The notes beneath the pieces are model-generated. The model was not told where the DNA came from and made no database searches. It was given only the letters and a program-made list of their open reading frames with translations. DNA of 64,000 bases from Escherichia phage APECc02, in the sequence record NC_041869.1; one strand, 5' to 3'. Positions 1,395 through 45,832 of the stretch are shown here, in pieces. Each line of letters starts with the position of its first letter. Positions within the stretch are counted from its first letter, which is position 1. Both the position numbers and the translations under genes were made by a program.

Positions 1395-1419
1395 AGGGGC
1401 TTAAAGCCCCTTTCTTTTT
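1395..1419 (+). terminator. rho-independent terminator (AGGGGC-TTAAA-GCCCCT + TTCTTTTTG)
   Basis: GC hairpin plus T-run immediately after ORF 1112-1375. Confidence 0.65.
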
Positions 1420-2027
1420 GTCTCCTCTTTTCCTACCACAAATGGCCCCGCCTGGCAAATGGAATAATCAACAAGCCAGCAATTAACCCCACTGTACAAA
1501 CATACATATAAAATAACTATTGCATAATTTTTCATTGTGTGGTAGCAGGGCCATTTTTACACGTTTTTCCTTCCAAAATTGCACGTAATGCAGCATTTGC
1601 ACAAAATTTAACCTGATGCATATCTTCAATAGCTTGTCAACAACTAAAAATCTTTATAAGTCATACACTTACATAACTACAAAAGCGTTTTCTACGTGAA
1701 AAATCGAGTATAACTATAGCCGCCAGATCTCAGAATTTACGTACGCTCGCCATTCTATAGCCTGCTAAGCATTTATTCCAACCATAGAATAACGGAATAG
1801 TCAATACCTGCATAAAATAATTATTCGTGTAAACTGCATAACATAAATCGGCCCAGGTGTCAACATTTTTCGTAAACAGTCTGGAATTGTCACGTTAGGT
1901 TACCATAAGCAGAGAAATCTTTAGTCGTCTAATGTTTACTGTACGTTACTATACTAACTGAAATCATTAGATGACTAATAGAAAGATAAGAAATAATTAA
2001 CAATACAATTATTTTATCTGTAACAAT

Positions 2028-2222
2028 AAGGCAACTATGCAAACGAATGGCATGGCGCGACGGAGTCGCGACATAATATAAAAGCAGTAACCATCACCCC
2101 CGTGATAGTTTGTCTGCAAACTATTAATCAGATCATAGTTGCCTTGTATTTAGTTAATCATGACATAACAAGCAAGGCAACTATAGATCTGCTAATAGTT
2201 GCCCTGCTTTTATATTATGTCA
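2028..2222. repeat. nested inverted repeats: 18-bp perfect arms GACATAATATAAAAGCAG (2070-2087) / CTGCTTTTATATTATGTC (2204-2221); GGCAACTAT motif 4x in alternating orientation; 8-bp stem hairpin 2105-2124
   Basis: read directly from sequence. Confidence 0.7.
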
Positions 2223-2317
2223 TAGAAACACCCGAAGGGGTGACCAAAGGTTACCTGGCATAGCCAGTGAAAGATTATTAACTTGCTAATCTTTATCATG
2301 CAAACGAATGGCATGGC
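2037..2317. repeat. 20-bp perfect direct repeat ATGCAAACGAATGGCATGGC at 2037-2056 and 2298-2317
   Basis: exact match seen in sequence. Confidence 0.8.
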
Positions 2318-2336
2318 TTATCATTTCTGTGTAAAT

Positions 2337-2381
2337 AGTCTATGCGTAAACTGTCAAGGCGTAAACAATCTATGCGTGAAC
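2337..2381. repeat. direct repeats TCTATGCGT(A/G)AAC x2 plus GGCGTAAAC
   Basis: seen in sequence. Confidence 0.6.
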
Positions 2382-2409
2382 AGTGAAACATGAAATAATA
2401 ACAGTTGTT

Positions 2410-2505
2410 ATTGTGTCATATTGTGCTGCAGCGTGTTGAGTATGTTTAAGGTGCCCAGTATGTCACCATTATGTCACTATTGTGTCATAGTGTCATAGTA
2501 TGTCA
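2410..2505. repeat. cluster of short (A/G)TGTCA(C/T) direct repeats, 6-8 copies at ~8-11 bp spacing
   Basis: seen in sequence. Confidence 0.6.
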
Positions 2506-2973
2506 GACAAGTTTTTCCCCTCTTTGTCAAGTGCTGCATGAAAAAATTTACAAGCTGGTATGGTAGCATTTTTGCGGCCTTGTTTACATTCAGTAATGTA
2601 TGTATAACCCTTGATGTGTGGGCGTTTAGACGTCTAGACGGTCAGAAGTCTGCAGGTCAATATCTAATCTATTGGCTGCTAACTATATCCCCCACAAATA
2701 ATAAGAAATATAATTGTTATGTGCGTAAACAGTAACTCATGTTATCAATCCCTGTATGGATCGCCAGTGGTGCGCATAATGGGTATTATGTTAAATTGCC
2801 CGTAATGATAACTATTCTCACAATGATAGGTATTCTCATTCACCCCCACAAGATAGGTTGCAAATGTTGTGCCACTGTGTGAACGGCCTAGCCTATTAAT
2901 TTGCCTCACTGCCTTGATATTTGAGAATTGTTATAAGAATGAGAAGTATTCCCATTTCGTCCGCCTGGCAGCA

Positions 2974-3316
2974 CTCCTGTAGGTCCTGCAAGGACTCTAG
3001 CTGAAAGCTAGACCCTTCGGGCCTCCCTGTAGGTCAGGTCAAAATCGTGGTAGAATTGGGCCTGTTCAGATATTTCTGGCTGACTCTTCAGGTCTGTGTG
3101 GGAAAAGCCAACCTCTCCGGCGGGGCAGGGGGTCATGACGGGAAAATTGCAGGTCAATTAAAAAATTTACGTGGTGTATGAAGCGCTCTTCAGGTAAGGC
3201 ATGTATTATGGGATGAAACCCTCTTCAGGCAATGATATTTGTGGGTGTGATATTTGCTGGAAAGCCAGATATGACGGGACTCCCGGCGGGGCAGGGGTAG
3301 TACAGACAGGGAAAAT
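2974..3316. repeat. GC-rich repeat family: CTCTTCAGG x3 (3085, 3186, 3221), CCGGCGGGGCAGGGG x2 (3117, 3282), ATGACGGGA x2, CCTGTAGGTC x2
   Basis: seen in sequence; no ORF with RBS. Confidence 0.6.
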
Positions 3317-3993
3317 ATGAGAATGTAGTTGGGGAAATTGATCAGACAGGTAGAGTATGGAATATGTTACAAGTATGTTAAATATGGAGGTTGAATATCT
3401 GTAGGATTTGTGTGTAAAATCAAAGACTTAAGGGGTGTTGTGGTATTTTCTATAAATAATTCAAGTTTAATAGGCAATATTTGTCTCTATCCGCTTTGTG
3501 TGGTAAACAGATTCAGATTAGATTGGTTTACAAGTGTATACATAATATACAAATTAAAGATACAAGAAACCCCCCTCCCCCCTTCGGCTACCATTCACCT
3601 TTTCCTCTGACTGGTACTTAAACACTTATTCAGACTCTTCAGGTTATCACCCATATATCATATGGCAGTGACTGGTGTCCTCCGGCCCCTCTTTCGTCAC
3701 CCGTCCGCTTCGCCATGCTAATGCCATAGCTAATGGTTCGGTTGTTCACCCTGTTCACTCAGGTGTATCTCTATACCCCTTCAAACCGAAGAGAACAGAA
3801 AACCCGAATTACTCGGTAAAAGAAAAGAGAAGAACTTAATTTTATCAGGATAGGCAAGAATGTCAAGGCATGACTGCTCACTAAACAAGCAAACAGTCAT
3901 GTGTGGGAGGTAAGTGATTGTGGTGGTAGGAAATTTAGTTGAAAGATGTGTTATAGGTGCTTCCAGCACTTTAGCCGGGCAGCTAATTGTGTG

Positions 3994-4209
3994 TCAGTCC
4001 AGCGGTTCATCCTCTACTTCACTGAAATCAATGTTCATGGTCTCTTCCCAACCATCGATCTCAGCACAAGAGTGGAGTTCTTTAGGGTTTACTCCCAAAG
4101 CCTCAGCAACAGAGTCTATATTTAACACCTCTGGCAGGTATGATTCATCGAATTCAAGGTAAATCAGGCCACGAGTGTTGTCAGCTCCACCAAATATCTC
4201 TATCTTCAT
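3994..4209 (-). CDS. small acidic protein (MKIEI... N-terminus)
   Basis: ORF with GAGGAG RBS; first gene of leftward block. Confidence 0.5.
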   Translation of the reverse strand: MKIEIFGGADNTRGLIYLEFDESYLPEVLNIDSVAEALGVNPKELHSCAEIDGWEETMNIDFSEVEDEPLD

Positions 4210-4330
4210 AAAATCTCCTCTGGGAATGAAAGTGTGAACAGGGTTTTATACGTTCTAATGCACAGGAATTATACACGTTTGCCTCTTCAGGCCATGCTTC
4301 AGCATGAGGAACCTGTGTGGGCTCGGTGCT

Positions 4331-4744
4331 TCATAGTCTACCACCCCTGAACTCTTCGTGCTCAGGCATAATAGAGAACCAGATATCTACGATGTCTTCC
4401 CACGTCAGGTCATCAGCCTCAGGATCTACCTGGAGCGAAGATGAAGAATCTTCAGAATCGAAGTTTTCCTCTTGCACTGGCTCAGTCAAGGGACATATAG
4501 TCACTCCTTTGGATGTCTCTTCAGATGCATGTGTGTTTATCATGTTCCACCCGTGAGTATTCCGGCAACAGCCACTATGGACGTAATGATCATCAGGATC
4601 ACCACCAAAACCTCTGACAATGTTTTCATTGTGTATCCCATATTCTCCAAACGATGTGTGGATACTATCACTGGATCGGTAATGTGTCAACAGAAACGCC
4701 GCGAGGGTTTGGTTAAAATCCGAGCGTATGGTGATTTGGGTCAA
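4331..4744 (-). CDS. hypothetical protein
   Basis: longest ORF co-oriented with block; opposite-strand overlaps rejected. Confidence 0.4.
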   Translation of the reverse strand: MTQITIRSDFNQTLAAFLLTHYRSSDSIHTSFGEYGIHNENIVRGFGGDPDDHYVHSGCCRNTHGWNMINTHASEETSKGVTICPLTEPVQEENFDSEDSSSSLQVDPEADDLTWEDIVDIWFSIMPEHEEFRGGRL

Positions 4745-4903
4745 AACGGACGTGCGTTCTCGCTACGCTCGAAATATGGAGTTGTTTGTAGGGAGCTCTT
4801 AAACGCTCTGTAATGAAATTAACTACCCAAGGTATGCAATCGTGCACCAGACAAAGAAAAGGACGCCACAGAGCGTCCTAGGTGTCTTAAATTTGATATT
4901 TTG

Positions 4904-5215
4904 CTATACCCACGAGGGCTTATCAAGGTTGGAGTAGCTGAAAGGTGTCAAAAGGTGACTGTCAAAATCTCTCAAACTATCCAAATCTTTTTCCTCGTCC
5001 TGACACCATCTGTGCCTACATTTGTTGTTGTAGTGCATGGAATGCATAGCGTTCTGCAACTTAACAGGCACAAGTGATTCAGGAGTAGATAGTATTGTTG
5101 GGTATGCCAGAACCACCTCAAACAGTGGAAACACATCGAAACTAAAGTCTACCTCTGCAGAGGTTGATGGCATATAGGAGTATTTAGCCGCCTTTGTAGA
5201 CATAATCCACCTCAC
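4904..5215 (-). CDS. hypothetical protein
   Basis: ORF, co-oriented, 4-nt overlap with upstream gene. Confidence 0.45.
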   Translation of the reverse strand: MRWIMSTKAAKYSYMPSTSAEVDFSFDVFPLFEVVLAYPTILSTPESLVPVKLQNAMHSMHYNNKCRHRWCQDEEKDLDSLRDFDSHLLTPFSYSNLDKPSWV

Positions 5216-5544
5216 ACAGGTTTGATAATACCTTCACCGAATAGCTCTTCGTATCTAATCTTGTCCGGATCCCACTCCTGTATAATTTCGAAGACAATAT
5301 CCAACCCAGGAACAATCACTTCTCCAGTGTCAAGCTTAGCAAGAACAAAACCGGAAGGTTGAATGGTTTCCCAGTTACGGCGATCAGAATAAAATACTTC
5401 GAAAATATCACCAACCTCAATCCGTTTCTGTTGCTCAAGATGCTGAAGGTTCTCTTTCATACGGATGCAGCGTATTTTTCGTGCAGGCCATAGACCACCT
5501 GCATCACGTTCATTCAATTCTTTTACAGTGATCGGTATACCCAT
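5212..5544 (-). CDS. hypothetical protein
   Basis: ORF co-oriented. Confidence 0.5.
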   Translation of the reverse strand: MGIPITVKELNERDAGGLWPARKIRCIRMKENLQHLEQQKRIEVGDIFEVFYSDRRNWETIQPSGFVLAKLDTGEVIVPGLDIVFEIIQEWDPDKIRYEELFGEGIIKPV

Positions 5545-5564
5545 CTCAAGTCTCCTTCATGGAT

Positions 5565-5593
5565 AGTAAAAAGAGGGGCCTAAGCCCCCCCTC
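5565..5593 (-). terminator. hairpin terminator (AGAGGGG...CCCCTCT, T-run on minus strand)
   Basis: inverted repeat plus T-run downstream of gene 5601-5906. Confidence 0.5.
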
Positions 5594-5600
5594 TTTGTCA

Positions 5601-5906
5601 TTATTCTACAGAGCGTTTGAACAGAATGTCTGCCTCAGACATGTGCTCAACCTCTTCTTCGATTTTAGCTCGACGTTTTTCAGCCTCATATCGAATATCG
5701 AACTCGGTAGCCACCAGAGATTTGATGAATTTAGGAGAATACAGATGATCCTGCTTCTCAACAAGAATGATATCCTTGATGGCATCTTTCAAATCTTTAA
5801 TCTGAAGCTGGAGTTCCACCAGTTCTTCAATTGTTTTGCGAAGGCGATCACGTTCTGCAGTGTCAGAAGGAAGAGAGGTGAACAGTTCAACTTTAGATTT
5901 AGCCAT
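5601..5906 (-). CDS. hypothetical coiled-coil protein
   Basis: ORF, charged/heptad-like composition. Confidence 0.5.
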   Translation of the reverse strand: MAKSKVELFTSLPSDTAERDRLRKTIEELVELQLQIKDLKDAIKDIILVEKQDHLYSPKFIKSLVATEFDIRYEAEKRRAKIEEEVEHMSEADILFKRSVE

Positions 5907-5934
5907 AGTAAGAGTCTCCTTATGTTGTTTTAAA

Positions 5935-6252
5935 TTAACGTTCTACAAAAATACCGTTCAGTTCAATAACCAGGAATTTCTGGTCTTCACTATCGTCTCG
6001 TGCCAGCACCTCACAGACGTATCGGTCATCCCCATCATCATCGCAGTCAAATACAAGACTGAGGACTTTATCATGATAAACCTTCGCCACTACCGCCTCG
6101 TAAGTATTGCCGATTGTGAATCCAAGATAATCTCCAATGCATTTGACAACAACATGATCACCAGCATTCAAGTCAATCTTCGTCATTACTGCGCTCCTTG
6201 GGTAATAATACTGTATGTAAAACTTTAACCAGAGATGTGAATAACGCCCCAA
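5935..6252 (-). CDS. hypothetical protein
   Basis: ORF co-oriented. Confidence 0.5.
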   Translation of the reverse strand: MGRYSHLWLKFYIQYYYPRSAVMTKIDLNAGDHVVVKCIGDYLGFTIGNTYEAVVAKVYHDKVLSLVFDCDDDGDDRYVCEVLARDDSEDQKFLVIELNGIFVER

Positions 6253-6341
6253 AACACACCGATAGCGCTAAAACAGACAAGGCCATCATTAAAGCTTCAG
6301 TAAAATCAGTCACTCCTCACCTCTTGTTAGTCACTATACTG

Positions 6342-6605
6342 TCATTTATCCTTGCCGTCAAGAACTTTTTTAAATCTTTCAGGGATATCGCCTGTTCTTA
6401 GATAGCTCATGACCTCACAAGGTTCCCACTTGAATTTCTTACAAAGCAGGGCGGCTGAGATTGTTTCATTGCGAAAAGAAAGGATATTAATATCCCATTC
6501 TGAGAATCCCAACTTCCGAAGGGTAGCTACAGAAATCCTCACCGCAACCCAGCAGCAAAAACATGCAACAAACGCCACTGCTATAACCCACATCAGGATG
6601 TTCAT
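6342..6605 (-). CDS. small membrane protein (N-terminal TM helix)
   Basis: hydrophobic N-terminus MNILMWVIAVAFVACFCCWVAV. Confidence 0.45.
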   Translation of the reverse strand: MNILMWVIAVAFVACFCCWVAVRISVATLRKLGFSEWDINILSFRNETISAALLCKKFKWEPCEVMSYLRTGDIPERFKKVLDGKDK

Positions 6606-6694
6606 ACAAGCACCTCACTGAAATACAAGACACAGTGTTAAGGTTACAGACCAGCAAATAATTAACAGTGCCGTTGCAACCTTGGCAAGATTTA

Positions 6695-6982
6695 TCATAG
6701 TGCCTCTAAGATTTCATATCCTTCGGGTCGGAATACAAGCCACTCCGTGGCTCCGTTTGGTCGATACGCTTTATACAGAACAACCTGATCTCGGCACATG
6801 CACATAGCTACATAGTTTTCATCCACACCTGCAGCCTGCATTGCAGCTTCTTCTCCGGCAACTGCTTTGCTTACAACCTCCTTAGTAGGCAAGTGTGCGA
6901 TCAGCTCGTCACCATCCTTAATTCCAAAATGGCTGAGTTCTCCATTGGTATCTTTAATCTTAATCTTAACCAAATCTTTCAT
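6695..6982 (-). CDS. hypothetical small protein
   Basis: ORF co-oriented. Confidence 0.5.
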   Translation of the reverse strand: MKDLVKIKIKDTNGELSHFGIKDGDELIAHLPTKEVVSKAVAGEEAAMQAAGVDENYVAMCMCRDQVVLYKAYRPNGATEWLVFRPEGYEILEAL

Positions 6983-7311
6983 TAGTCTTCCTCCAGGTTC
7001 AAAGGTCCTAAGATTTCATATGCCAGATTAGAAGTTACCAGAGGGTCTTCTGCATCTTTAGTATTATACCACCCGTGAATAACCAGAGTCCCACTTTGTT
7101 TCATGTCCAACTGTAACTCTTCTGCCGTTTCCTCATCCAGCTCCAAGATTTCCATAAGGTATTTGATGTTAGGAAGGTATGCAGCTGTTACAGTTCCCTC
7201 CACCAAACCTTCGGGCCAACCTACATCTGGATGACAAGTAGGAACCAGGTTGGTCAGCTTAATGGTGTACGCTTTTTCTGCACGAGCCTTCAGTAACGGG
7301 TCAATCTTCAT
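6982..7311 (-). CDS. hypothetical small acidic protein
   Basis: ORF co-oriented, start/stop overlap. Confidence 0.5.
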   Translation of the reverse strand: MKIDPLLKARAEKAYTIKLTNLVPTCHPDVGWPEGLVEGTVTAAYLPNIKYLMEILELDEETAEELQLDMKQSGTLVIHGWYNTKDAEDPLVTSNLAYEILGPLNLEED

Positions 7312-7661
7312 TATTCGTCCTCCTCTTCGGTGCCTGCTTCCAGTAATAAGTTAAGAATATCTTCTGCACAAGGCTCATAGAACTCTTGGCCTTCATTATC
7401 GATGATTTTGTAGTCATCTCCGCGAATAATCAGAGGATCACTCTCAAAATTATCGAGACCTTTAACAACGACAACACGATCGATTGCCATCATTGTAAGA
7501 ACTTTATCGACATCTTCCTCTGCTACACCATACTGCAGCAGAATGTCTTTGGTAGGAGGAACAGCATCCACCACAACACCGTTACCAAAACCTTCCGGTA
7601 AGTTAGCTAAAATATCTTCCGGAACCACACTAACATCAAAACCAGTAATTTCTACTTTCAT
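7311..7661 (-). CDS. hypothetical small acidic protein (MKVEI...)
   Basis: ORF co-oriented. Confidence 0.5.
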   Translation of the reverse strand: MKVEITGFDVSVVPEDILANLPEGFGNGVVVDAVPPTKDILLQYGVAEEDVDKVLTMMAIDRVVVVKGLDNFESDPLIIRGDDYKIIDNEGQEFYEPCAEDILNLLLEAGTEEEDE

Positions 7662-7922
7662 TTACAGCACCTCTTCGTCAACTACTTCATAAAAATGGCC
7701 TGGGATTGCAATAGCGTTCTCACCTTCACCTACAAACACAGTTCCGTCAAGAATCAACATCATAAGAGTTTCTGGAATATCCTCTTCCTGAACGTTGCCA
7801 AAACCTTTAATCAGCTCGTAGGTTGGAAGATTTACCTCTAAGATGTCACCATCTTTAGAGCGGAAATCAACACCATCCTGAATCTCTGCCATTTCAAGGT
7901 TTTTCAGTTTAATCTTCATCAA
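7662..7922 (-). CDS. hypothetical small acidic protein (MMKIKL...EVVDEEVL)
   Basis: ORF co-oriented. Confidence 0.5.
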   Translation of the reverse strand: MMKIKLKNLEMAEIQDGVDFRSKDGDILEVNLPTYELIKGFGNVQEEDIPETLMMLILDGTVFVGEGENAIAIPGHFYEVVDEEVL

Positions 7923-7998
7923 TCAGTCTCCCGTCTTGTTAAGATGAAGGTATTATTTCACACAGGGTTGGTGTTGTCAACACCTGTGTGCAAGAAAA

Positions 7999-8394
7999 TT
8001 ACTGAAACAGTGCGGATAAATTACCTTCTGGTGGGAACTTATCTGCCAAAAACGGTGTTAGCACAGTAGCCTTCTGAAGATCTGGGGTCCACTCGTTGTT
8101 CAGAACATCCCAGTAGTACGCAATGTTGCTGTGTGGGTGCCGCATTACGAACTTTTTCCCTTCGTAGTCATCTGAAACCTCTACAGAAGAAATAACAACA
8201 GAATCTTCAAGGGTTTCTTCATAGAAAGATCCGCCTTCAAATTTCCAACGAGATGCAAGAGCCCCTGCCTTGAACGCTGCAGATAACGGACTGTCGGCAA
8301 GAACATACATTTCTTGCACTCTGTCGCTGCGATCTTTGCTTCTTACGTTGTATACAGTATCTGAGCTATACTCAACACGGTATAGGCTTACCAT
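7999..8394 (-). CDS. family-B protein (HPxS...YW...WTP motif), paralog of 10202-10612
   Basis: shared motif FVMRHPHSNIAYYWD..WTP vs FVIVHPDSRVKHYWN..WTP. Confidence 0.55.
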   Translation of the reverse strand: MVSLYRVEYSSDTVYNVRSKDRSDRVQEMYVLADSPLSAAFKAGALASRWKFEGGSFYEETLEDSVVISSVEVSDDYEGKKFVMRHPHSNIAYYWDVLNNEWTPDLQKATVLTPFLADKFPPEGNLSALFQ

Positions 8395-8726
8395 TACCGC
8401 ACCTCCTCAATAACTTCCACATCTGAACCCACCACAAATGCAAAAGGACAGGTTTCATGAAAGACATCCGGATCGCCGCCAAGCTTGCTAACAATTTCTC
8501 CACCACTAATAAACACAAGCTCACCGATATTCATCAGATTGCTGAAATAGTATCCATAATGATTAAAGAATGCAGCAGGGTCAGGTAGACTAGTGGCCTC
8601 AAGCACTACATCGGTTGAGGTTACTTTCTTATCATAGCCTCTCGCCTTCTGAGATGCAAGATCTGCAGAATCCTCAGGCGACCGGAGATGCACAGGAATT
8701 GTTTCACCAATAAAGCGTACTTTCAT
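8394..8726 (-). CDS. family-A-like small acidic protein (MKVRF...DVEVIEEVR)
   Basis: ATG at 8726 preferred over upstream non-ATG start in track. Confidence 0.5.
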   Translation of the reverse strand: MKVRFIGETIPVHLRSPEDSADLASQKARGYDKKVTSTDVVLEATSLPDPAAFFNHYGYYFSNLMNIGELVFISGGEIVSKLGGDPDVFHETCPFAFVVGSDVEVIEEVR

Positions 8727-8730
8727 ATTA

Positions 8731-8994
8731 TCACCCAACAACCATAGCTTCAAAAGGGGTCATGAACGAATAAACGGCATCATCATCTGCTTCAGGGAAT
8801 GCTCCCAAAGACTTCATGTCTGAGCCCTTGACAAATACAAGGTTTTGATCAAAGGCTTCTTGGGGGTCAATCCGATACATATCTCGTAGGATATCACTTA
8901 CCTCCTCATCAAGAGGTGAGTATGCTGTGCACGTTTTTCCGATCAAGCTTTGAGAATCAGGGTATCCACCTGAAGTTTTAAAATAAACAATCAT
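8731..8994 (-). CDS. family-A small protein (VFVKGSDMKSLGA motif)
   Basis: motif shared with 10613, 10857, 14516 ORFs. Confidence 0.5.
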   Translation of the reverse strand: MIVYFKTSGGYPDSQSLIGKTCTAYSPLDEEVSDILRDMYRIDPQEAFDQNLVFVKGSDMKSLGAFPEADDDAVYSFMTPFEAMVVG

Positions 8995-9085
8995 ATAGTA
9001 TCACCTCTGGTAAGAGATTGGGATTCCTTTCCCACAAATAATTACAAACCTTCCTTGTCGAGGAAGTATGCTAATCCAAGCAGGA

Positions 9086-9355
9086 TTATTCCTCTACAAT
9101 CTCATACACATCCGGAGTTACAATCAACTCTTCTCCGTTACCCGGTGCAACAAACACCACCATTCCTTCAGGTGTGTGCTTTTTAGCCATCTCGATAACA
9201 TCTTCTCGCAGAGCTGGCTCCATCAGATCAAAACCTTCACCAAGGGCATCACGAACCACCTTCATATAGTCAACTGGTTGTGCTTCGACAATCATGCCTT
9301 CAACCAGTCCACAATTTTTGTCTGCCAGCTCAGTTTGGAATAATTTAATTTTCAT
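9086..9355 (-). CDS. hypothetical small acidic protein (MKIKL...YEIVEE)
   Basis: ORF co-oriented. Confidence 0.5.
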   Translation of the reverse strand: MKIKLFQTELADKNCGLVEGMIVEAQPVDYMKVVRDALGEGFDLMEPALREDVIEMAKKHTPEGMVVFVAPGNGEELIVTPDVYEIVEE

Positions 9356-9381
9356 TTAGAGGTCTCCTCAATTATTTGATA

Positions 9382-9483
9382 TTAATAGCCGTAACCTAAC
9401 ACATTAACTACAACTGCGATTGCAAACATAATTTCAAAGCATGCAATCTCTACATTTGGGACTAATTTCTTAATCACACCCAT
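9382..9483 (-). CDS. possible 33-aa hydrophobic peptide
   Basis: short ORF with GAGGTG RBS in a 150-bp gap; below track size cutoff. Confidence 0.25.
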   Translation of the reverse strand: MGVIKKLVPNVEIACFEIMFAIAVVVNVLGYGY

Positions 9484-9505
9484 TGTAGCACCTCATTCTC
9501 CAAAG

Positions 9506-9811
9506 TCAATCTTTACTTTGCCTCTCCCCCTTACCTTTCTTTCTACCGCACTTAGCCAGTTGACGTGCTGCAACATCTACCATACGGTCAGTTGCCTCGT
9601 AAGCATCACTGCCTTTAGCTTTGGCAATAACTTCTTTTCCAGAATTGTCAAAAATGAACGCCATAACTTCCTGGTGATCATTTTCAACTTTTACACTCAC
9701 ACGTGCATAGTTGGCAGAGGGGTGCAAACGCTCCAGCTTAGACATTTTGTTGGAAATGAAAGACACCATACCTTCAGTGATTTCTACGTTGCCAGTGATT
9801 TCAATTTGCAT
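9506..9811 (-). CDS. hpf: ribosome hibernation promoting factor / RaiA (YfiA) family
   Basis: MQIEITGNVEITEG..KLE..VKVE..ARQLAK aligns along its length with bacterial HPF. Confidence 0.8.
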   Translation of the reverse strand: MQIEITGNVEITEGMVSFISNKMSKLERLHPSANYARVSVKVENDHQEVMAFIFDNSGKEVIAKAKGSDAYEATDRMVDVAARQLAKCGRKKGKGERQSKD

Positions 9812-9830
9812 AACGTGTTCCTTTTAAAGA

Positions 9831-9849
9831 AGAGGGGACCAAACCCTCT
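9831..9849 (-). terminator. hairpin (AGAGGG-GACCAAA-CCCTCT)
   Basis: inverted repeat with T-rich flank on minus strand. Confidence 0.4.
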
Positions 9850-9893
9850 TTGAAAACAATGATACTAAATCTGAAGCGTTGTGTCAACAGTTT

Positions 9894-10184
9894 TTACAGA
9901 TTGTTGTCGATAGTTTTTAAAATATCCACAGCAAGATCTGCCATTTTTCGAACATACTCTGCAAACTCAACAGGATCCTTGATCAAAGAATTCACAGGGT
10001 CGTACCCTAGAGCGTTCAAAATGGTTGCAGCATCTACAACCTTCTCATCATTTGCGAAGATCTCTCCGTCAAACTTGTAGGTCCATTTTGAGTCAACCTT
10101 AGCAGAGCAGGGTTTGTCCATGCTTGTTACACCATCGTCTTTAAACTCTCCTGCGTTATCAATATTCAGAACTAAATCCATCAT
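9894..10184 (-). CDS. hypothetical protein
   Basis: ORF co-oriented. Confidence 0.5.
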   Translation of the reverse strand: MMDLVLNIDNAGEFKDDGVTSMDKPCSAKVDSKWTYKFDGEIFANDEKVVDAATILNALGYDPVNSLIKDPVEFAEYVRKMADLAVDILKTIDNNL

Positions 10185-10201
10185 AGTGGCACCTCACTGT
10201 T

Positions 10202-10612
10202 TCAGTTTAGCTTTTCTTCAACAACCCCATAACTTGGGGCAGAGTCAAGAGCTTTCTGGTTTAAAAGTGGTGTAGCAGAATCTGCAAACGGTGTCCAAGT
10301 TTTTGTTCTGGCATTCCAGTAATGCTTCACTCTAGAATCTGGGTGCACTATAACAAAAACTTTTTCACTTGTCAACACATTAATTTCTTCCACACCTTTG
10401 CTGATAATTTCTCCGTCATATCCCCCGGTCTGGTATCCTTCGTACCAGGTTCTTGCATAGGCATAGCCAGCCTGCCAGCATGCAGCCTCCTCCGAGGTGG
10501 AGACTACGTAGAAGTCTTTCTCAAATTCTGGGATACGCCCTTGCTTTACGCTCCAAGCTCCGCGAATTTTCATTGTAACTTTGAACAGTTTATTTTTCAC
10601 AACGGTTACCAA
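10202..10612 (-). CDS. family-B protein, paralog of 7999-8394
   Basis: shared HPxS..YW..WTP..TP(F/L)L motif. Confidence 0.55.
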   Translation of the reverse strand: MVTVVKNKLFKVTMKIRGAWSVKQGRIPEFEKDFYVVSTSEEAACWQAGYAYARTWYEGYQTGGYDGEIISKGVEEINVLTSEKVFVIVHPDSRVKHYWNARTKTWTPFADSATPLLNQKALDSAPSYGVVEEKLN

Positions 10613-10867
10613 TCACAGCTCTACAATATCTGCATCTGACCCTGCCCCAAAGGCATAATAGGACTCTTCCCCGAAATAATATTCCGGTGCACCAGCAGCG
10701 ATCAGGTCTGATCCCAAGATAAACACCACGTTGTGGCCTACATAACTGTGATGTTGCCGCACAGGATCATCCCACGGCAACCCTTCAAAGTATACCGCAG
10801 GAACGACCTTTCCCTTCAGGAAGGATTGTCCCAAGTAGACGTTAGAATCAAGAATTTTAACCTTCAT
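10613..10867 (-). CDS. family-A small protein (MKVKIL...GSDLIAAGA...DIVEL)
   Basis: paralogous to 10857-11084 and 14516-14749. Confidence 0.55.
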   Translation of the reverse strand: MKVKILDSNVYLGQSFLKGKVVPAVYFEGLPWDDPVRQHHSYVGHNVVFILGSDLIAAGAPEYYFGEESYYAFGAGSDADIVEL

Positions 10868-11084
10868 GATCGTCCTCCACTATCTCTACATCCTCACCAA
10901 GGGCAAAGTTGTAGGTCCACTGACTGTCAAAGCAGTCCTGAGATGCACCAGCGGCAATAAGATCTGCACCTTTTATTTTTAAAAGGTCAGGATAATCTTC
11001 GTTAGGGATAGCGGTAAACACTTTCCCCACTAAGGGCTCCTGACCAATATAGAAGCTTGAATCTAAAACTTTAACTTTCATCAA
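10857..11084 (-). CDS. family-A small protein (MMKVKVL...GADLIAAGA...VEIVED)
   Basis: paralog; tandem with 10613-10867. Confidence 0.55.
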   Translation of the reverse strand: MMKVKVLDSSFYIGQEPLVGKVFTAIPNEDYPDLLKIKGADLIAAGASQDCFDSQWTYNFALGEDVEIVEDDHEG

Positions 11085-11368
11085 CGGTCTCCCTCAGGCG
11101 GTTGTGGGACGTAAACACTGTTACGAATATCGTCAGCAGTGTAGTAATAAGTGGTTCCAACCCTGTCTCGGGCTGCAATGTACTCTGCTATACCAATAAG
11201 TGCCATTGATTTGGTGGCGTATCTTCCCAACTCGTTAGCTCCCCAGTAGAATTTAGACCAGTAGGGAATAAGACCGAACAAATATACCTTTTGACGAACT
11301 TCCCAGTAAGTGCCTTTTCCGACAAGTTTAAACTCTACTTCACTACTGTTAATCTTTTTCATTATCAA
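11081..11368 (-). CDS. hypothetical protein
   Basis: ORF co-oriented, overlapping stops. Confidence 0.5.
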   Translation of the reverse strand: MIMKKINSSEVEFKLVGKGTYWEVRQKVYLFGLIPYWSKFYWGANELGRYATKSMALIGIAEYIAARDRVGTTYYYTADDIRNSVYVPQPPEGDR

Positions 11369-11661
11369 TCTCCCTCTACCGTGGTCGGATTGTCAGTAAG
11401 AAATTGAGCATTGGCTGGAGGCACGCCTGACATTTTCCACACAACCATAAGTTTGTAACCAGGCACTCTATTAAGTGCAGATCGAGTAGAGTTTGTGCAC
11501 GTATACTTTCGCTTTCCAAACCCGTTCTCCATCATAATCCAGTACCCAGTATCTTTGTCACCAGGTATCGGTAGACCACCTTCATCAACCCACTGAATGG
11601 ACCACGGCACGATGGCTACAGCTTTATATTTAAACTTTTTAAACCACTCAAAAAGTTTCAT
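11365..11661 (-). CDS. hypothetical protein
   Basis: ORF co-oriented. Confidence 0.5.
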   Translation of the reverse strand: MKLFEWFKKFKYKAVAIVPWSIQWVDEGGLPIPGDKDTGYWIMMENGFGKRKYTCTNSTRSALNRVPGYKLMVVWKMSGVPPANAQFLTDNPTTVEGD

Positions 11662-11756
11662 AATTCAGCCTCGCATAGACATAATCACTATAAACAGGCA
11701 AACAATGAATCCGAATGCCACGCCACCCATAAACGTTAATATTGATGCAATCATAG

Positions 11757-11942
11757 TCAATCAGCCTCGCTTGGCAACTCTTCTACCTTAACATGCCGAA
11801 AAGTGTTACCGTAATGGTTGATCCATGACATCAGCTCGCTTTCTTGCTCTTCCTCTGGGATGAACTCTCGAATGCTGACAAGTTTTAAGAAAACCCAATC
11901 ACAATCTGCACCCATTCTACCAGACAGGCAATAGTGCTTCAT
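11757..11942 (-). CDS. hypothetical small protein
   Basis: ORF co-oriented. Confidence 0.4.
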   Translation of the reverse strand: MKHYCLSGRMGADCDWVFLKLVSIREFIPEEEQESELMSWINHYGNTFRHVKVEELPSEAD

Positions 11943-11960
11943 AAAACCCTCCCGCCTGGT

Positions 11961-12155
11961 TTAGAATATTGCTTCTTCCATTGCGCCTGAGAGCAACAAA
12001 GAGGTGATCTGGCTAACATTCATCTCAGACTCTACTTCCTCCCCTTTGAAAGGTTCGCGGCAGAATAGGACTGTTTCAGGACTTTTACTTCGAACAATAT
12101 AATACAAATCATTCAATGTGTTGTAGTAATAAGTGTTAAAACGTAAGTTTTTCAT
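11961..12155 (-). CDS. hypothetical small protein
   Basis: ORF co-oriented. Confidence 0.4.
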   Translation of the reverse strand: MKNLRFNTYYYNTLNDLYYIVRSKSPETVLFCREPFKGEEVESEMNVSQITSLLLSGAMEEAIF

Positions 12156-12439
12156 TTTCTAGTCCTCTTCTTAGATTTTTGGGGAGAAACGCTTTCTGCA
12201 ATACGAGACAGACGTTCTTCTGAAGCCTTACCTACTCCAGGTTTTTTGAGTGGATTATCTTTATGACCACAATCCAACTGGATATTGGATACCTCTCCAA
12301 CTTTGTAAGTCAATTCTAGCAAAAGGTTGTCGTCCTTGTCAAATGTTTTTACGATAAATTTTTTATCGTTCTCCTGAACTTCATATCTGGTACCTGCAGT
12401 ATACAGCATGGTGCCATCAGCATAGGATATCCAGATCAT
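12152..12439 (-). CDS. hypothetical protein (basic C-terminus)
   Basis: ORF co-oriented. Confidence 0.45.
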   Translation of the reverse strand: MIWISYADGTMLYTAGTRYEVQENDKKFIVKTFDKDDNLLLELTYKVGEVSNIQLDCGHKDNPLKKPGVGKASEERLSRIAESVSPQKSKKRTRK

Positions 12440-12783
12440 TGAGCCTCCTTTTGCTGCAACAGCATTAACTCTTTGTTAGAGATCTTTACTGCTGTTTTTA
12501 TTGTTCCATCTTCACGAAACCACGACCAGAACTCTACAGTGTCACCACTATCAAGTAAAGCATGCCCATGGTAAAAATCTTTGTCCTTAGACAGTTTCTC
12601 ATCTATATCTGCATCAACACATTCGTGATCCATAGCATTTTGCCTGAACGCATCGGTTATGCCAATGCACGCCTTGCTCTCAAGACTGGTATATCCGATA
12701 TCTTTTAATTCAGTTTCCCAAGTCCAGTACCCTATAAAAGCTAAAACAGCTACCCACAGTAATAACGTTTTAATCTTTGGCAT
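12436..12783 (-). CDS. membrane-anchored or secreted protein (N-terminal signal/TM)
   Basis: N-terminus MPKIKTLLLWVAVLAFIGYW. Confidence 0.45.
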   Translation of the reverse strand: MPKIKTLLLWVAVLAFIGYWTWETELKDIGYTSLESKACIGITDAFRQNAMDHECVDADIDEKLSKDKDFYHGHALLDSGDTVEFWSWFREDGTIKTAVKISNKELMLLQQKEAQ

Positions 12784-12845
12784 TCTCTCTACCTCTTTCT
12801 TAGTTTATTTCACTATGGCACATCCTTTGTGCCATATCTCAACTA

Positions 12846-13316
12846 CTACTTAAATAGTAGTTCAAAATAGTGCAAAATTAACAGAAGTTGAACTACACCT
12901 AGTGCAACGGCAAGTATGTTAATCTTAGAATCGAAAAACTTCTTAACTTTTACTCTAAAAGGTTCCTTAATGTCCTTTACGATCCTATCTATAGATGACC
13001 TCATATCTCTGATTACCATCCTGAACATTAAAGACGGATGCTCCCCCATCTCTGTAACGGAATCGAAAACATACTCTCTTCGGTCATAAGGGCCGCCAGC
13101 TCTGCGTATTAACCTCTCCACAGAGACCTCGAACGTCACACCTGTAACGTAATCATCTATAACAAGTCGTGACGGGTCTTTACCTTTACTATCAAGAGGT
13201 ATCAAAGTTATCTTTCCAGATTTTGTTAAAATTTCCCCTTTTTCAAGCAAGGTGTACCAATGCTCTCTGCCAAGACTGTTGAGGCACGTTTTTACATATT
13301 TAACAAACATCGTCAC
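12846..13316 (-). CDS. tail-anchored membrane protein (C-terminal TM)
   Basis: C-terminal hydrophobic stretch INILAVALGVVQLLLILHYF. Confidence 0.45.
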   Translation of the reverse strand: MTMFVKYVKTCLNSLGREHWYTLLEKGEILTKSGKITLIPLDSKGKDPSRLVIDDYVTGVTFEVSVERLIRRAGGPYDRREYVFDSVTEMGEHPSLMFRMVIRDMRSSIDRIVKDIKEPFRVKVKKFFDSKINILAVALGVVQLLLILHYFELLFK

Positions 13317-13718
13317 CCCTCATCGCACGTCTGATATAACCACTCTATAAAATCTTGATACCATTCGCCCTCTGAGCGCTCCGTAGGCCAATAATCTTCA
13401 CCCTCTCGTGCATTAAAATCTGAGTATTCAACTTTCCACTCCTTTACCAGCTCGTGGAGAAGGTTTTCAGCCTGCTCTAAAGATTTATTTTTTTACCATT
13501 GCTGTCTCCTTTTTCAAGATAGTTATACATCAGAACTGCACCACCTAAGATGGCTACCAGTAACAATACCCCAGATAGCATCTCAATAAACATGGCTTGA
13601 AACACTGGAAGGCCTCCCTAAATTAACGCACCATTTTAAATACATGCTCTTTTCCCATAAAGGTGCCTGGCTAAGATCTGCGTAGAACGCAATCTCTTTA
13701 AGAACAGTATAAACAGTT

Positions 13719-13955
13719 TTAGGTGCGGTCTCCATCCCTACCCTCCTTTTTCTCCTTACGGATATTCTTGTAGTAATCAACCAAGCACATTATCACGATG
13801 AAGATAACAACAGGCCAAAAAGGTGCAGCAGTGATGATGGTGATAAAATCATCAAACTTCACCCTTCGTCTGGACACGATGCATACACCTGTCAAGAATA
13901 CCGCTGTTATAACGGACATTACCAGGTAACCTATTAGCACAACATTTATACTCAT
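13719..13955 (-). CDS. two-TM membrane protein with charged C-terminus (holin-like topology)
   Basis: two hydrophobic helices then KNIRKEKKEGRDGDRT. Confidence 0.35.
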   Translation of the reverse strand: MSINVVLIGYLVMSVITAVFLTGVCIVSRRRVKFDDFITIITAAPFWPVVIFIVIMCLVDYYKNIRKEKKEGRDGDRT

Positions 13956-13985
13956 TGGTCCTCCCTTTGTAGGTTAAATTGTATA

Positions 13986-14519
13986 CTACAAATGGTCGCT
14001 GAGGGTGTCAAGAAAATTATCCCGTTCTTTCTCAGAGTTTTCATGTGTGTAGCTGAAAAACATATCGAGAATAACCTTATTGATATATTCCAGCTCCTCT
14101 GTGTTCAGATGCTTAGCAGGATCTACAATGACATCCCAAATATCATACAGACCGCACTCATGATACCCATAACGCCACTCAATTGTCAAGCTGAGCGGCA
14201 AATCTTTACCTTCACAAACAACCTTCCATCTACATATGTTGGTATCTGGTCGTACCTGTGCACGGTACACCTGCACAAAATCCAATTTGAATTTGAGGTA
14301 CTCGTCATACAATTTAAGCACAAAGCTCTCGATTTGTGGAGACACTTTTGCAGCAAACTGTGCGTATTTGTACTTGCACTGGATGATCTTTCTGCGTTTT
14401 GCAGTTAAATTTTTTGCCGCCAGTTGTTCTTCAGTGTATCTCCACCTACGATCAACAAACGCAACAGGGTCTTTGTCCCCATAGAGGTCTTCCCAGTTAA
14501 TCAGAAGCATACCTGTCAC
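13986..14519 (-). CDS. hypothetical protein
   Basis: ORF co-oriented. Confidence 0.5.
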   Translation of the reverse strand: MTGMLLINWEDLYGDKDPVAFVDRRWRYTEEQLAAKNLTAKRRKIIQCKYKYAQFAAKVSPQIESFVLKLYDEYLKFKLDFVQVYRAQVRPDTNICRWKVVCEGKDLPLSLTIEWRYGYHECGLYDIWDVIVDPAKHLNTEELEYINKVILDMFFSYTHENSEKERDNFLDTLSDHL

Positions 14520-14749
14520 TCCTCCACAACTTCAAGGCCTTTACCGCCTCGCTCTGGCAGATTACTTAAAGATAGGTAATACATATAATCAGGAGAGATC
14601 CTGCCAGACTCTGCACCTGCAGCTAGTAAATCCTTCCCTTTAACCAGGACAACATTCTCGTTTGCAGATAGCCGTTTTGCTTCCACAATTTTACCAACAC
14701 AGTCAACCAAGGAAGGGTACCCTAAATCTGTAAGAAATTTAACTTTCAT
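14516..14749 (-). CDS. family-A small protein (MKVKFL...GKDLLAAGA...LEVVEE)
   Basis: paralog of 10613 and 10857 ORFs. Confidence 0.55.
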   Translation of the reverse strand: MKVKFLTDLGYPSLVDCVGKIVEAKRLSANENVVLVKGKDLLAAGAESGRISPDYMYYLSLSNLPERGGKGLEVVEE

Positions 14750-14786
14750 GCTACCTCCTACCTACCATCCCTGGTAAGATAAATTA

Positions 14787-15185
14787 TTACTGAACAGAGC
14801 GCGGTGCTGGGAAGGATAACTCTTCTAAAGAGAAGATTTCATTTCCTACCACCCAAGTTGCTGGGTCATCTGGATCAACAGGTTGGATAATCATTACCTC
14901 ATCCGCCTCGCACACACGTTTCCCACCCATAGTAGCGTCAGCCACTAACATACGCGGCTCTTCAGAAATGCACAGGTAGCCACCTCGGCCCACTGTTCCT
15001 TCCACGGGATCCTGCCCTTTGACCACAATGAATACCTTCTCTCCTGTGGCGATATTACTTTTCACACTAACAGTTTGACCAACTTTAGATGTACCGATCT
15101 TGGTGGCTTCAAACATTAAATCCCGAATTACTGTTGCATAGTTGCCGGACACTTTCTTACCTTCTTTAGTAATCTCAATCTTCAT
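14787..15185 (-). CDS. hypothetical protein (MKIEI...)
   Basis: ORF co-oriented. Confidence 0.5.
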   Translation of the reverse strand: MKIEITKEGKKVSGNYATVIRDLMFEATKIGTSKVGQTVSVKSNIATGEKVFIVVKGQDPVEGTVGRGGYLCISEEPRMLVADATMGGKRVCEADEVMIIQPVDPDDPATWVVGNEIFSLEELSFPAPRSVQ

Positions 15186-15457
15186 AATCTAGGCTCCTTA
15201 AATGAATCTATGTAATCAATTAAATCCCAAGCATCGCGATGGGCTGTCAGAGGGTATACTTCTCCGAGAGGGATCATAGCAATAAGTCTATCAAAAACCC
15301 AGTCTGGACGCAACATTTTATGGTGATATTCCCACTCACCTTCCACAGATTTTTTCTGAGTTATCAGGATCTCTGTGTAGTGTTTCTCCTGTCTTGAGTA
15401 GATTGAAAATGACTTGTACATAAATGACCCCCTCTTGTTGAAAACAACAATACACAA
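15182..15457 (-). CDS. hypothetical protein
   Basis: ORF co-oriented. Confidence 0.45.
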   Translation of the reverse strand: MCIVVFNKRGSFMYKSFSIYSRQEKHYTEILITQKKSVEGEWEYHHKMLRPDWVFDRLIAMIPLGEVYPLTAHRDAWDLIDYIDSFKEPRL

Positions 15458-45728: not shown

Positions 45729-45825
45729 GCTAGGTAAGCCCTTTGGCAAGGGCGAGGATTTTTAATCCTGAAAATAGACGAGGTAGTCGTTGAATACATA
45801 GGTGGTTCGATTCCATCACCTAGCA
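45729..45825 (+). ncRNA. atypical tRNA-like element (acceptor and T-arm intact; possible TTT anticodon; ~31-nt variable region)
   Basis: GCTAGGT/ACCTAGC acceptor pairing and GGTTCGATTCC T-arm, but non-canonical middle. Confidence 0.3.
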
Positions 45826-45832
45826 CCTTTTT

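What the first reader, a model, noticed from the sequence alone, without database searches (positions are those of the whole stretch)
3994..15185. Expanded family of at least ten small acidic early proteins with shared N-terminal strand and acidic C-terminus
Many adjacent 70-130 aa ORFs begin MK(I/V)(K/E)(I/V) and end with E(I/V)VEE-like acidic tails (3994, 7311, 7662, 8394, 9086, 10613, 10857, 14516, 14787 and others). None carries a recognisable catalytic motif. Such arrays in early regions are typical hiding places for anti-restriction, anti-CRISPR or host-shutoff factors.
Basis: partly seen in the sequence, partly recalled or inferred. Interest (0 to 1): 0.65.

Follow-up and report, generated by a model that had tools for sequence, protein, structure and literature searches.

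The report
Two paralogous small-barrel protein families
Ten small genes in this rV5-like E. coli phage form two five-member gene families, both predicted to fold as SH3-like barrels. They are real, conserved and dispensable accessory genes of unknown function, and the claim of one ten-member family is only partly right.

Summary
The window is a Vequintavirus (rV5-like E. coli myophage), 97-99% identical to published genomes. The motif observation holds. MK[IV][KER][IVFL] starts occur in 9 of 34 genes in the region and 0 of 69 elsewhere in the window.

Leave-one-group-out HMM tests resolve ten ORFs into two robust paralog families.
- **Family A:** 10857, 10613, 14516, 8731, 8394.
- **Family B:** 9086, 7662, 7311, 6982, 6695.

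ORFs 3994 and 14787 share only the first 7-8 residues with these families, so they are not supported as members.

AlphaFold models (pLDDT 90-92) make both families five-stranded SH3-like barrels. The N-terminal motif is strand 1 and the acidic C-terminus is strand 5. Common ancestry of A and B is suggestive, not proven (hhalign P about 0.001-0.003).

The genes are under purifying selection (dN/dS about 0.1). All ten are kept in the same order in a divergent relative. They have almost no relatives outside this phage group.

Published transposon data for the near-identical phage Bas54 show none of them essential on K-12 (seven called non-essential, three intermediate). One tightly coupled A-A-C cassette (8731-8394-7999) is lost on a uropathogenic isolate. 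That fits a host-adaptation role, although polar effects could explain it.

Anti-restriction and anti-CRISPR roles are untested. An "early" expression class is inferred, not shown.

The parts
10857..11081 (-). Family A member (74 aa, MKVKVLDS...VEIVEDDHEG), first gene of A-A-C cassette 1
   Evidence: Leave-one-group-out HMM rank 1 of 456 ORFs, E 3e-18. phrog_5009 E 3e-38. AlphaFold model pLDDT 90.5, SH3-like barrel.
10613..10867 (-). Family A member (84 aa), second gene of cassette 1; overlaps the upstream gene by 11 nt
   Evidence: blastp to 10857 E 6e-14. Leave-one-group-out E 2e-20. phrog_5009 E 5e-32.
14516..14749 (-). Family A member (77 aa), solitary copy; closest to the lambdoid-prophage homologue P0032
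   Evidence: Leave-one-group-out E 1e-10. phrog_5009 E 8e-36. 46% identical to P0032.
8731..8994 (-). Family A member (87 aa) with an insert between strands 2 and 3; first gene of cassette 2; ortholog of bas54_0152
   Evidence: Leave-one-group-out E 6e-7. 99% identical to bas54_0152. Transposon insertions lost on CFE311, log2FC -7.2, q=0.
8394..8726 (-). Family A member (110 aa from the annotated ATG) with a long insert; second gene of cassette 2; ortholog of bas54_0151
   Evidence: Leave-one-group-out E 2e-6. 99% identical to bas54_0151. log2FC -6.2, q=0 on CFE311. Its stop overlaps the start of 7999.
9086..9355 (-). Family B member (89 aa, MKIKLFQT...YEIVEE); ortholog of bas54_0153
   Evidence: Leave-one-group-out E 3.5e-5, rank 1. 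AlphaFold model pLDDT 92.5, SH3-like barrel with a helical insert. No S30AE match despite the 'sigma 54 modulation factor' label in some records.
7662..7919 (-). Family B member (85 aa)
   Evidence: Leave-one-group-out E 2e-8. blastp to 7311 E 0.003 and to 6695 E 0.011.
7311..7661 (-). Family B member (116 aa) with an extra acidic C-terminal helix-like tail
   Evidence: Leave-one-group-out E 2.5e-8. It is the best non-A hit of family-A HMMs in 3 of 5 leave-out runs.
6982..7311 (-). Family B member (109 aa)
   Evidence: Leave-one-group-out E 2e-6. The L009 ortholog of 7311 hits it at E 8e-6.
6695..6982 (-). Family B member (95 aa, the motif starts at residue 6: VKIKIKD)
   Evidence: Leave-one-group-out E 4e-6.
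7999..8394 (-). Family C paralog (131 aa), third gene of cassette 2; unrelated in sequence to A and B; ortholog of bas54_0150
   Evidence: blastp to 10202 E 6e-8. phrog_7379. hhalign versus A P=0.54 and versus B P=0.17. log2FC -6.8, q=0 on CFE311.
10202..10573 (-). Family C paralog (123 aa from the annotated ATG), third gene of cassette 1; ortholog of bas54_0157
   Evidence: phrog_7379. 100% identical to bas54_0157. log2FC -2.1, q=0 on CFE311.
3994..4209 (-).
   Evidence: Leave-one-out rank 25, E 15. hhalign to the B profile aligns residues 1-8 only.
14787..15185 (-).
   Evidence: Leave-one-out rank 12, E 9.3. hhalign to B aligns residues 1-7 only. phrog_5748.
7952..7980 (-). Sigma-70-like promoter (TTGACA-17-AATAAT with TG) in the gap after cassette 2, upstream of the four-gene B run
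   Evidence: Consensus scan, 11 of 12 matches. Conserved in Bas54. Function not shown.
9050..9066 (-). Terminator-like hairpin between 9086 and cassette 2
   Evidence: Consensus scan. Also present in Bas54. Function not shown.

Best explanation
Ten of the small ORFs are real protein-coding genes that form two five-member paralogous families. Family A is 10857, 10613, 14516, 8731 and 8394. Family B is 9086, 7662, 7311, 6982 and 6695. Both families are predicted to fold as five-stranded SH3-like beta-barrels. The MK(V/I)K(V/I) start is strand 1 and the (Y/V)E(I/V)VE(E/D) end is strand 5. In this fold the first and last strands lie next to each other, so alternating Lys and Glu side chains could pair on the surface while Val and Ile fill the core; that would explain why the two motifs travel together (inference). 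The families differ in their loop insertions. B has a helical insert between strands 2 and 3. A has a GxDLIAAGA helix after strand 3, and some A members have inserts at the same site as B. They probably arose from one ancestral gene by repeated tandem duplication within the rV5-like lineage (probable, not proven). Family A genes recur as adjacent pairs or fused repeats, so they probably act as pairs or oligomers (inference). All ten are accessory genes, dispensable on E. coli K-12 (shown for near-identical orthologs). My best guess at mechanism is that they are small non-enzymatic binding proteins that neutralise or re-tune host proteins, and so adapt the phage to particular hosts. This includes possible counter-defence, with the A-A-C cassette 8731-8394-7999 as the strongest candidate. 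This last step is inferred, not shown.
Against: The A-B homology signal is weak: HH probability is only about 10%, and SH3-like barrels are common and can arise by convergence. Only one member of each family was modelled. No A or B member has a demonstrated partner or activity. Eight of the ten show no phenotype on K-12 or CFE311. The depletion of bas54_0151 and bas54_0152 may be a polar effect on the translationally coupled C gene bas54_0150. The other C paralog (0157) is also depleted while its upstream A genes are not. Low dN/dS does not look like an ongoing arms race at short range. There is no similarity to any known anti-defence family. Vequintavirinae are reported to be very sensitive to restriction-modification.
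Confidence: 0.6

Rival explanations
1. A and B are two unrelated orphan families that converged on a small barrel and on similar terminal strands. There is no ten-member superfamily, only two five-member ones that happen to be neighbours.
For: A-only and B-only HMMs do not detect each other significantly; the best cross hit has E 0.17-5. HH probability is 4-11%. Distant A relatives (P0097-P0103, CHOED) do not bridge to B. PHROGs keeps them apart.
Against: The hhalign alignment is colinear with P 0.001-0.003 and is not reached by 200 shuffles. Both models have the same predicted fold and the same variable-insert site. The two families are interleaved in one gene array. Controls against family C are flat.
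Confidence: 0.3
2. The proteins serve the phage's own programme, for example as regulators of transcription or translation or as assembly or replication accessories, rather than targeting host defence.
For: KOW and NusG/Spt5 domains and ribosomal SH3-like proteins are among the fold matches. A ribosome hibernation factor gene sits inside the array. In Vibrio phage CHOED the A pair lies between the DNA polymerase and an exonuclease. Strong purifying selection and strict conservation across the genus. Three members score 'intermediate' fitness on K-12.
Against: No Pfam KOW or S30AE match. All are dispensable on K-12. The only strong phenotype is host-specific. The lambdoid homologue sits in a typical accessory-gene position.
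Confidence: 0.25
3. The similarity is only start-codon and ribosome-binding-site context (Lys as second codon, GAGGAG at gene ends), and the ORFs are unrelated or not translated.
For: ORFs 3994 and 14787 share nothing beyond residues 1-8. The ribosome hibernation factor also starts MQIEITG. Five acidic ends overlap the next gene's Shine-Dalgarno sequence.
Against: Full-length leave-one-group-out recovery of all ten members. Confident folds. dN/dS about 0.1. The C-terminal EVxEE strand is kept in distant homologues that have no downstream overlap. There is also a transposon phenotype.
Confidence: 0.03
4. They are DNA-mimic anti-restriction proteins of the Ocr/ArdA type.
For: They are small and acidic (pI 4.0-5.4).
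Against: The predicted fold is a compact beta-barrel, not an elongated helical DNA mimic. No Pfam match at E up to 0.1. The BASEL study found Vequintavirinae exceptionally susceptible to restriction-modification systems (PMC8594841). Acidity is shared by most small proteins of the region.
Confidence: 0.05

Closest known systems
phrog_5009 (PHROGs v4, unknown function)
   Same: Contains three of the A members (10613, 10857, 14516; E 5e-32 to 8e-36) and weakly 8731 (E 1e-4).
   Different: PHROGs does not link 8394 (phrog_13661) or any B member; each B member is its own singleton phrog. It carries no fold or function annotation.
SH3-like small beta-barrel fold (SH3 domains, Spt5/NusG KOW, PsaE, retroviral integrase C-terminal domain, Hpy99I barrel)
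   Different: Sequence identity is only 4-24%. No Pfam SH3 or KOW match. There is a large helical insert (B) or an extra helix (A). The proteins are free-standing and acidic rather than domains of larger proteins. No proline-peptide or nucleic-acid binding has been shown.
bas54_0140 (ortholog of window 4904-5203), anti-defence gene against DS-28
   Same: It is in the same gene array, equally small, unannotated and dispensable on K-12, and host-conditionally required on CFE311.
   Different: It has no sequence relationship to A, B or C. It has a validated knockout phenotype, which no A or B member has.
Arrays of small early or accessory genes in large lytic phages (for example the SPO1 host-takeover module and T4 small-ORF clusters; recalled from memory as a lead only)
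   Same: They are tightly packed small ORFs with sigma-70-like promoters, mostly dispensable in the laboratory host.
   Different: Here ten of the genes are demonstrable paralogs with one predicted fold. Timing and toxicity are unknown for this phage.

Membership tests
Family A (proposed here; core equals phrog_5009) | Full-length match to a profile built without the tested ortholog group | tested here: met
   All five recovered at rank 1 of 456 ORFs, E 2e-20 to 2e-6.
Family A (proposed here; core equals phrog_5009) | Signature MKVK(L/I)L..GY..VGKV..A ... G.DLI.AGA ... Y.F ... E(I/V)VE | tested here: met
   Seen in alignments A4 and A8 and in distant relatives P0097-P0103 and CHOED_040C. It is degenerate in 8394 and 8731.
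Family B (proposed here) | Full-length match to a profile built without the tested ortholog group | tested here: met
   All five recovered at rank 1 of 456 ORFs, E 2e-8 to 3.5e-5. ORFs 3994 and 14787 fail.
   hhalign P 0.0009-0.003 but probability only 4-11%. 0 of 200 shuffles reach the local score. No bridging sequence among 1.84 billion representatives.
SH3 domain (Pfam SH3 families) / KOW motif | Match to the curated sequence profile | tested here: not met
   No Pfam family at E up to 0.1 for any of the ten.
Ribosome hibernation factor / sigma-54 modulation protein (PF02482), as some records label the 9086 ortholog | Match to PF02482 | tested here: not met
   9086 has no match. The true homologue is 9506-9811, E 8e-13. 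The label is propagated annotation.
Anti-restriction, anti-CRISPR or other anti-defence proteins | Sequence membership in a described family | tested here: not met
   Only function-unknown PHROGs; no Pfam or NCBIfam hit.
Anti-restriction, anti-CRISPR or other anti-defence proteins | Loss of the gene sensitises the phage to a specific defence system | not testable with these tools
   Only indirect data exist: insertions in the 8731 and 8394 orthologs are lost on CFE311, possibly through polarity on 7999.
Early genes | Transcribed in the first minutes of infection | not testable with these tools
   Sigma-70-like promoters lie in intergenic gaps. The rV5 paper predicts host-type promoters genome-wide but gives no timing data. 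No Vequintavirus transcriptome was found.

The most novel reading that the evidence does not exclude
The tightly coupled three-gene cassette A-A-C, present twice (10857-10613-10202 and 8731-8394-7999), is a previously unrecognised multi-component host-range or counter-defence module. In it a heterodimer of SH3-like A proteins works with the C protein to disable a defence system of uropathogenic E. coli CFE311. The expanded A and B families would then be a diversified set of such binders for different host targets.
Probability: 0.2. Interest if true: 0.65.

Novelty: new member of a known kind. Interest (0 to 1): 0.42.

Why it matters
rV5-like phages are abundant, broad-host-range E. coli phages used in biocontrol and therapy, and about two thirds of their genes have no known function. 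This analysis shows that ten of the "hypothetical" genes collapse into two, possibly one, families of small-barrel proteins. It also shows that family A genes recur as pairs next to a third gene family, and that one such cassette is required on a clinical isolate. Together these turn an anonymous gene block into a short list of concrete experiments on host range and counter-defence. It also corrects a propagated mis-annotation ("sigma 54 modulation factor") and defines two protein families absent from Pfam.

Tried and rejected
1. **Family C as a divergent A domain.** hhalign gives A vs C P=0.54 and B vs C P=0.17, at or below the shuffle mean. Rejected.
2. **The C-terminal part of the triple-A protein P0098 as a C-family fragment.** hhalign P=0.35. 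Rejected.
3. **ORF 9086 as a second hibernation factor.** No PF02482 match. Rejected.
4. **ORFs 3994 and 14787 as members.** Only residues 1-8 align.
5. **Sequence relatives with solved structures.** None for A or B.
6. **NCBIfam.** Only sub-threshold noise.
7. **P0096 (1593 aa).** A spurious hit to a Listeria-Bacteroides repeat protein.
8. **The search for related loci.** A single-protein query gave one false positive inside a high-GC structural gene.
10. **The mBio 2026 defence-island paper.** It contains nothing about these genes.
11. **Vequintavirus transcriptome.** None found.
12. **Other family members in the window.** ORF 37845-38114 appeared weakly in early HMM runs but not in profile tests.
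Full report
**What the window is**

Region 3900-15300 is 97-99% identical over its full length to more than 100 published Vequintavirus (rV5-like) E. coli myophage genomes, including A51.2, slur12 and the BASEL phage JeffSchatz. In those records every gene in the region is "hypothetical" except a ribosome hibernation factor. All genes from 3994 to about 41250 lie on the minus strand.

The flagged block sits between a roughly 2.5 kb non-coding stretch (1400-3990) and the N6-adenine methyltransferase, ClpP-like, PhoH-like and nucleotide-metabolism genes.

**Check of the observation**

- The nine listed ORFs are present as described.
- In a 103-gene set for the window, the start motif MK[IV][KER][IVFL] is found in 9 of 34 genes inside the region and in none of 69 outside. 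A strict acidic C-terminal motif is found in 6 of 34 inside and 0 of 69 outside. The clustering is therefore real.
- ORF 14787 lacks the acidic end.
- Acidity as such is not distinctive, because most small proteins in the region have pI 4-5.7.
- At five gene junctions the terminal Glu-Glu codons (GAGGAG) are also the Shine-Dalgarno sequence of the next, overlapping gene. This contributes to the acidic-tail impression.

**Are they a family?**

All-vs-all blastp gives three groups.

| Group | Members |
|---|---|
| A | 10857, 10613, 14516, 8731, 8394 |
| B | 6695, 7311, 7662, with 9086 and 6982 weakly |
| C | 7999, 10202 |

- Leave-one-out HMMs built from window sequences alone recover every A member (E up to 3e-5) and every B member at rank 1 of 456 ORFs (E 6e-5 to 0.04). 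They do not recover 3994 or 14787.
- Homologue searches in 5.8 billion proteins find only orthologs from rV5-like phages, plus a few divergent A-type proteins.
- A divergent rV5-like contig, L009, has core genes 69-88% identical to the window. It carries all ten genes in the same order at 33-81% identity.
- With these sequences added, I left out whole ortholog groups in turn. Every member returns at rank 1, with A at E 2e-20 to 2e-6 and B at E 2e-8 to 3.5e-5.
- ORFs 3994 and 14787 align to the B profile only over residues 1-8.
- PHROGs places three A members in phrog_5009 and every other member in its own family of unknown function. Pfam and NCBIfam have nothing.

**Is A related to B?**

- Profile-profile comparison gives a colinear alignment with local P 0.0027 and global P 0.00088, but an HH probability of only 4-11%.
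- None of 200 column-shuffled B profiles reaches the local score (real 22.1, shuffle mean 8.9, maximum 17.0). Three of the 200 reach the global score.
- In three of five leave-out runs, the best non-A hit of an A profile among 451 other ORFs is the B member 7311.
- Controls against family C are flat, at P 0.54 and 0.17.
- An exhaustive HMMER scan of 1.84 billion representatives with a joint profile finds only 18 proteins. None of them bridges the two families.

I therefore treat common ancestry as probable (about 0.65-0.7) but unproven.

**Fold**

AlphaFold models were built for 10857 (family A, pLDDT 90.5, pTM 0.79) and 9086 (family B, pLDDT 92.5, pTM 0.73). Both have five strands.

- Strand 1 is residues 2-5, which is the MKVK motif.
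- The last strand is the EIVE motif.
- B carries about 30 helical residues between strands 2 and 3. The A members 10613, 8731 and 8394 have inserts at the same alignment position.
- A has a short helix (G.DLIAAGA) after strand 3.

Foldseek of the B model against viral models finds an 86-residue Vibrio phage Vc1 protein (E 5e-4) and the 6695 ortholog.

**Are they real genes?**

Pooled dN/dS against three 97%-identical relatives is 0.07-0.12 for A, 0.10-0.14 for B and 0.02-0.04 for C. It is about 0.15 for the other genes of the block. At greater depth the B orthologs diverge faster than core enzymes, at 33-58% versus 69-88%.

**Arrangement**

In the direction of transcription the order is:

14787, A(14516), [intervening genes], A(10857)-A(10613)-C(10202), 9894, hibernation factor, B(9086), A(8731)-A(8394)-C(7999), B(7662)-B(7311)-B(6982)-B(6695).

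So there are two A-A-C cassettes and a run of four B genes.

- In cassette 2 the three genes are separated by 4 nt and by an overlapping TAATG.
- Cassette 2 is preceded by a terminator-like hairpin and followed by a strong sigma-70-like promoter.
- A-A adjacency recurs in Vibrio phage CHOED (HH probability 95-97% for both domains). There the first domain is read in frame with an HNH homing endonuclease ORF.
- The metagenomic protein P0098 has three fused A domains.
- Some rV5-like phages carry a chimera of 10857 and 10613 fused at the DLIAAGA segment.
- A single A gene also occurs in lambdoid E. coli prophages and phage mEp013. It sits among about ten small ORFs between the Q antiterminator and the lysis genes.

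**Experimental context from the literature**

The HIDEN-SEQ preprint (10.1101/2025.11.20.689424) reports transposon sequencing of Bas54 (phage MaxBurger). Its genes in this block are 86-100% identical to the window ORFs (94-100% for the A, B and C genes).

On K-12, every A, B and C ortholog is "non-essential" or "intermediate". The table below shows the resampling comparison whose console command contrasts K-12 with the uropathogenic isolate CFE311.

| Bas54 gene(s) | Window ORF(s) | Family | log2FC on CFE311 | q |
|---|---|---|---|---|
| 0150 | 7999 | C | -6.8 (no reads left) | 0 |
| 0151 | 8394 | A | -6.2 (no reads left) | 0 |
| 0152 | 8731 | A | -7.2 (no reads left) | 0 |
| 0157 | 10202 | C | -2.1 | 0 |
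| 0153 | 9086 | B | -2.8 | not significant |
| 0146-0149 | 6695, 6982, 7311, 7662 | B | -0.04 to +0.40 | not significant |
| 0158, 0159, 0166 | 10613, 10857, 14516 | A | -0.30 to +0.98 | not significant |
| 0167 | 14787 | none | +0.65 | not significant |

- These genes are not mentioned in the main text. Knockouts were built only for 0063 and 0140.
- bas54_0140, a validated factor against the predicted system DS-28, is the ortholog of window 4904-5203 and is unrelated to A, B or C.
- Because 0152, 0151 and 0150 are translationally coupled, depletion of the two A genes may be polarity on the C gene. Insertions in 0158 and 0159 do not depress 0157's cassette, but that junction has a 39-nt gap. 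The evidence for family A itself is therefore ambiguous.
- The BASEL paper states that Vequintavirinae are exceptionally susceptible to restriction-modification systems (PMC8594841). This argues against an anti-restriction role.
- The original rV5 genome paper does not mention paralogs or gene duplication.

**Mechanism**

- **Shown:** there are two conserved paralog families, each with a confident SH3-like barrel prediction. They are dispensable on K-12, and one cassette has a host-conditional requirement.
- **Inferred:** A and B share a common origin. Strands 1 and 5 pair, which would explain the linked terminal motifs. A domains act in pairs. The proteins function as small non-enzymatic binders of host or possibly phage proteins that tune the infection to particular hosts.
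- **Not shown:** early timing, any binding partner, or any anti-CRISPR or anti-restriction activity.

**Verdict**

The families are undescribed orphan families in a well-sequenced phage group. They are ordinary in kind, being small accessory proteins with a common fold. They come with a concrete, testable lead, namely the A-A-C cassette that is required on CFE311.

Noticed in passing
window 1400-3990: A non-coding stretch of about 2.5 kb with no ORFs, tRNAs or Rfam hits. It has three tandem 15-nt iteron-like repeats (GCGTAAAC...) at 2331-2387 plus a copy at 2710, perfect 18-nt inverted repeats at 2070-2221, and a 35% GC segment. The equivalent region of Bas54 tolerates no transposon insertions (preprint 10.1101/2025.11.20.689424). 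It is a candidate replication origin.
   Followed up: partly
window 9506-9811 (-): A phage-encoded ribosome hibernation factor (PF02482, E 8e-13) sits in the middle of the small-gene array. It is non-essential in Bas54.
   Followed up: partly
window 9086-9355 (-): Orthologs of this family B gene are labelled 'sigma 54 modulation factor' in several GenBank records (for example nomine_137). There is no S30AE match, so this is a propagated mis-annotation.
   Followed up: yes
window 4904-5203 (-): A 99% ortholog of bas54_0140, reported as required to overcome the predicted defence system DS-28 of E. coli CFE311. It is unrelated to families A, B and C.
   Followed up: partly
window 7999-8394 and 10202-10573 (-): A third paralog pair (family C, phrog_7379), each lying directly downstream of an A-A pair. 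Both orthologs are significantly depleted on CFE311 in the Bas54 Tn-seq tables. The family is restricted to rV5-like phages (8 hits in 5.8 billion proteins).
   Followed up: partly
window junctions at 10867, 8394, 7661, 7311, 6982: The last codons of the upstream gene (GAGGAG, GGAGGA) double as the Shine-Dalgarno sequence of the overlapping downstream gene. This forces Glu-rich C-termini.
   Followed up: yes
P0015, P0018, P0029 (homologues from other rV5-like contigs): Chimeric family A proteins. P0015 and P0018 have the N-terminal half of 10857 joined to the C-terminal half of 10613 at the DLIAAGA segment. P0029 has a lambdoid-type N-terminal half joined to the 10857 C-terminal half. This indicates recombination between paralogs.
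   Followed up: partly
L015 (Vibrio phage CHOED) 4557-5409: An annotated 219-aa 'HNH endonuclease' runs in frame into an A-type domain that starts with its own Met (MQVKLIG...). A second A-type gene follows it. This is probably a homing endonuclease gene inserted just upstream of an A-A pair.
   Followed up: partly
window 45729-45827 (+): Within a seven-tRNA cluster, ARAGORN calls one tRNA of undetermined type with a four-base anticodon (atcc).
   Followed up: no
GenBank MG0656xx records: Eighteen records named 'Campylobacter phage' with host Campylobacter jejuni are about 97% identical to this E. coli rV5-like sequence. The host assignment looks doubtful.
   Followed up: no
Preprint 10.1101/2025.11.20.689424, Extended Data Table 8, sheets S6 and S7: Both sheets (labelled K-12 vs CFE303 and K-12 vs CFE311) carry the same console command using the CFE311 file and report the same number of significant genes (27). 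The CFE303 comparison could therefore not be read.
   Followed up: partly
L013 3990-4775: The divergent A-type protein P0041 (107 aa, with an acidic DPFDDVFDGEI tail) sits directly upstream of an HTH_3 gene in an unrelated small phage contig. This resembles the layout of anti-CRISPR/Aca loci, but it is a single instance.
   Followed up: no
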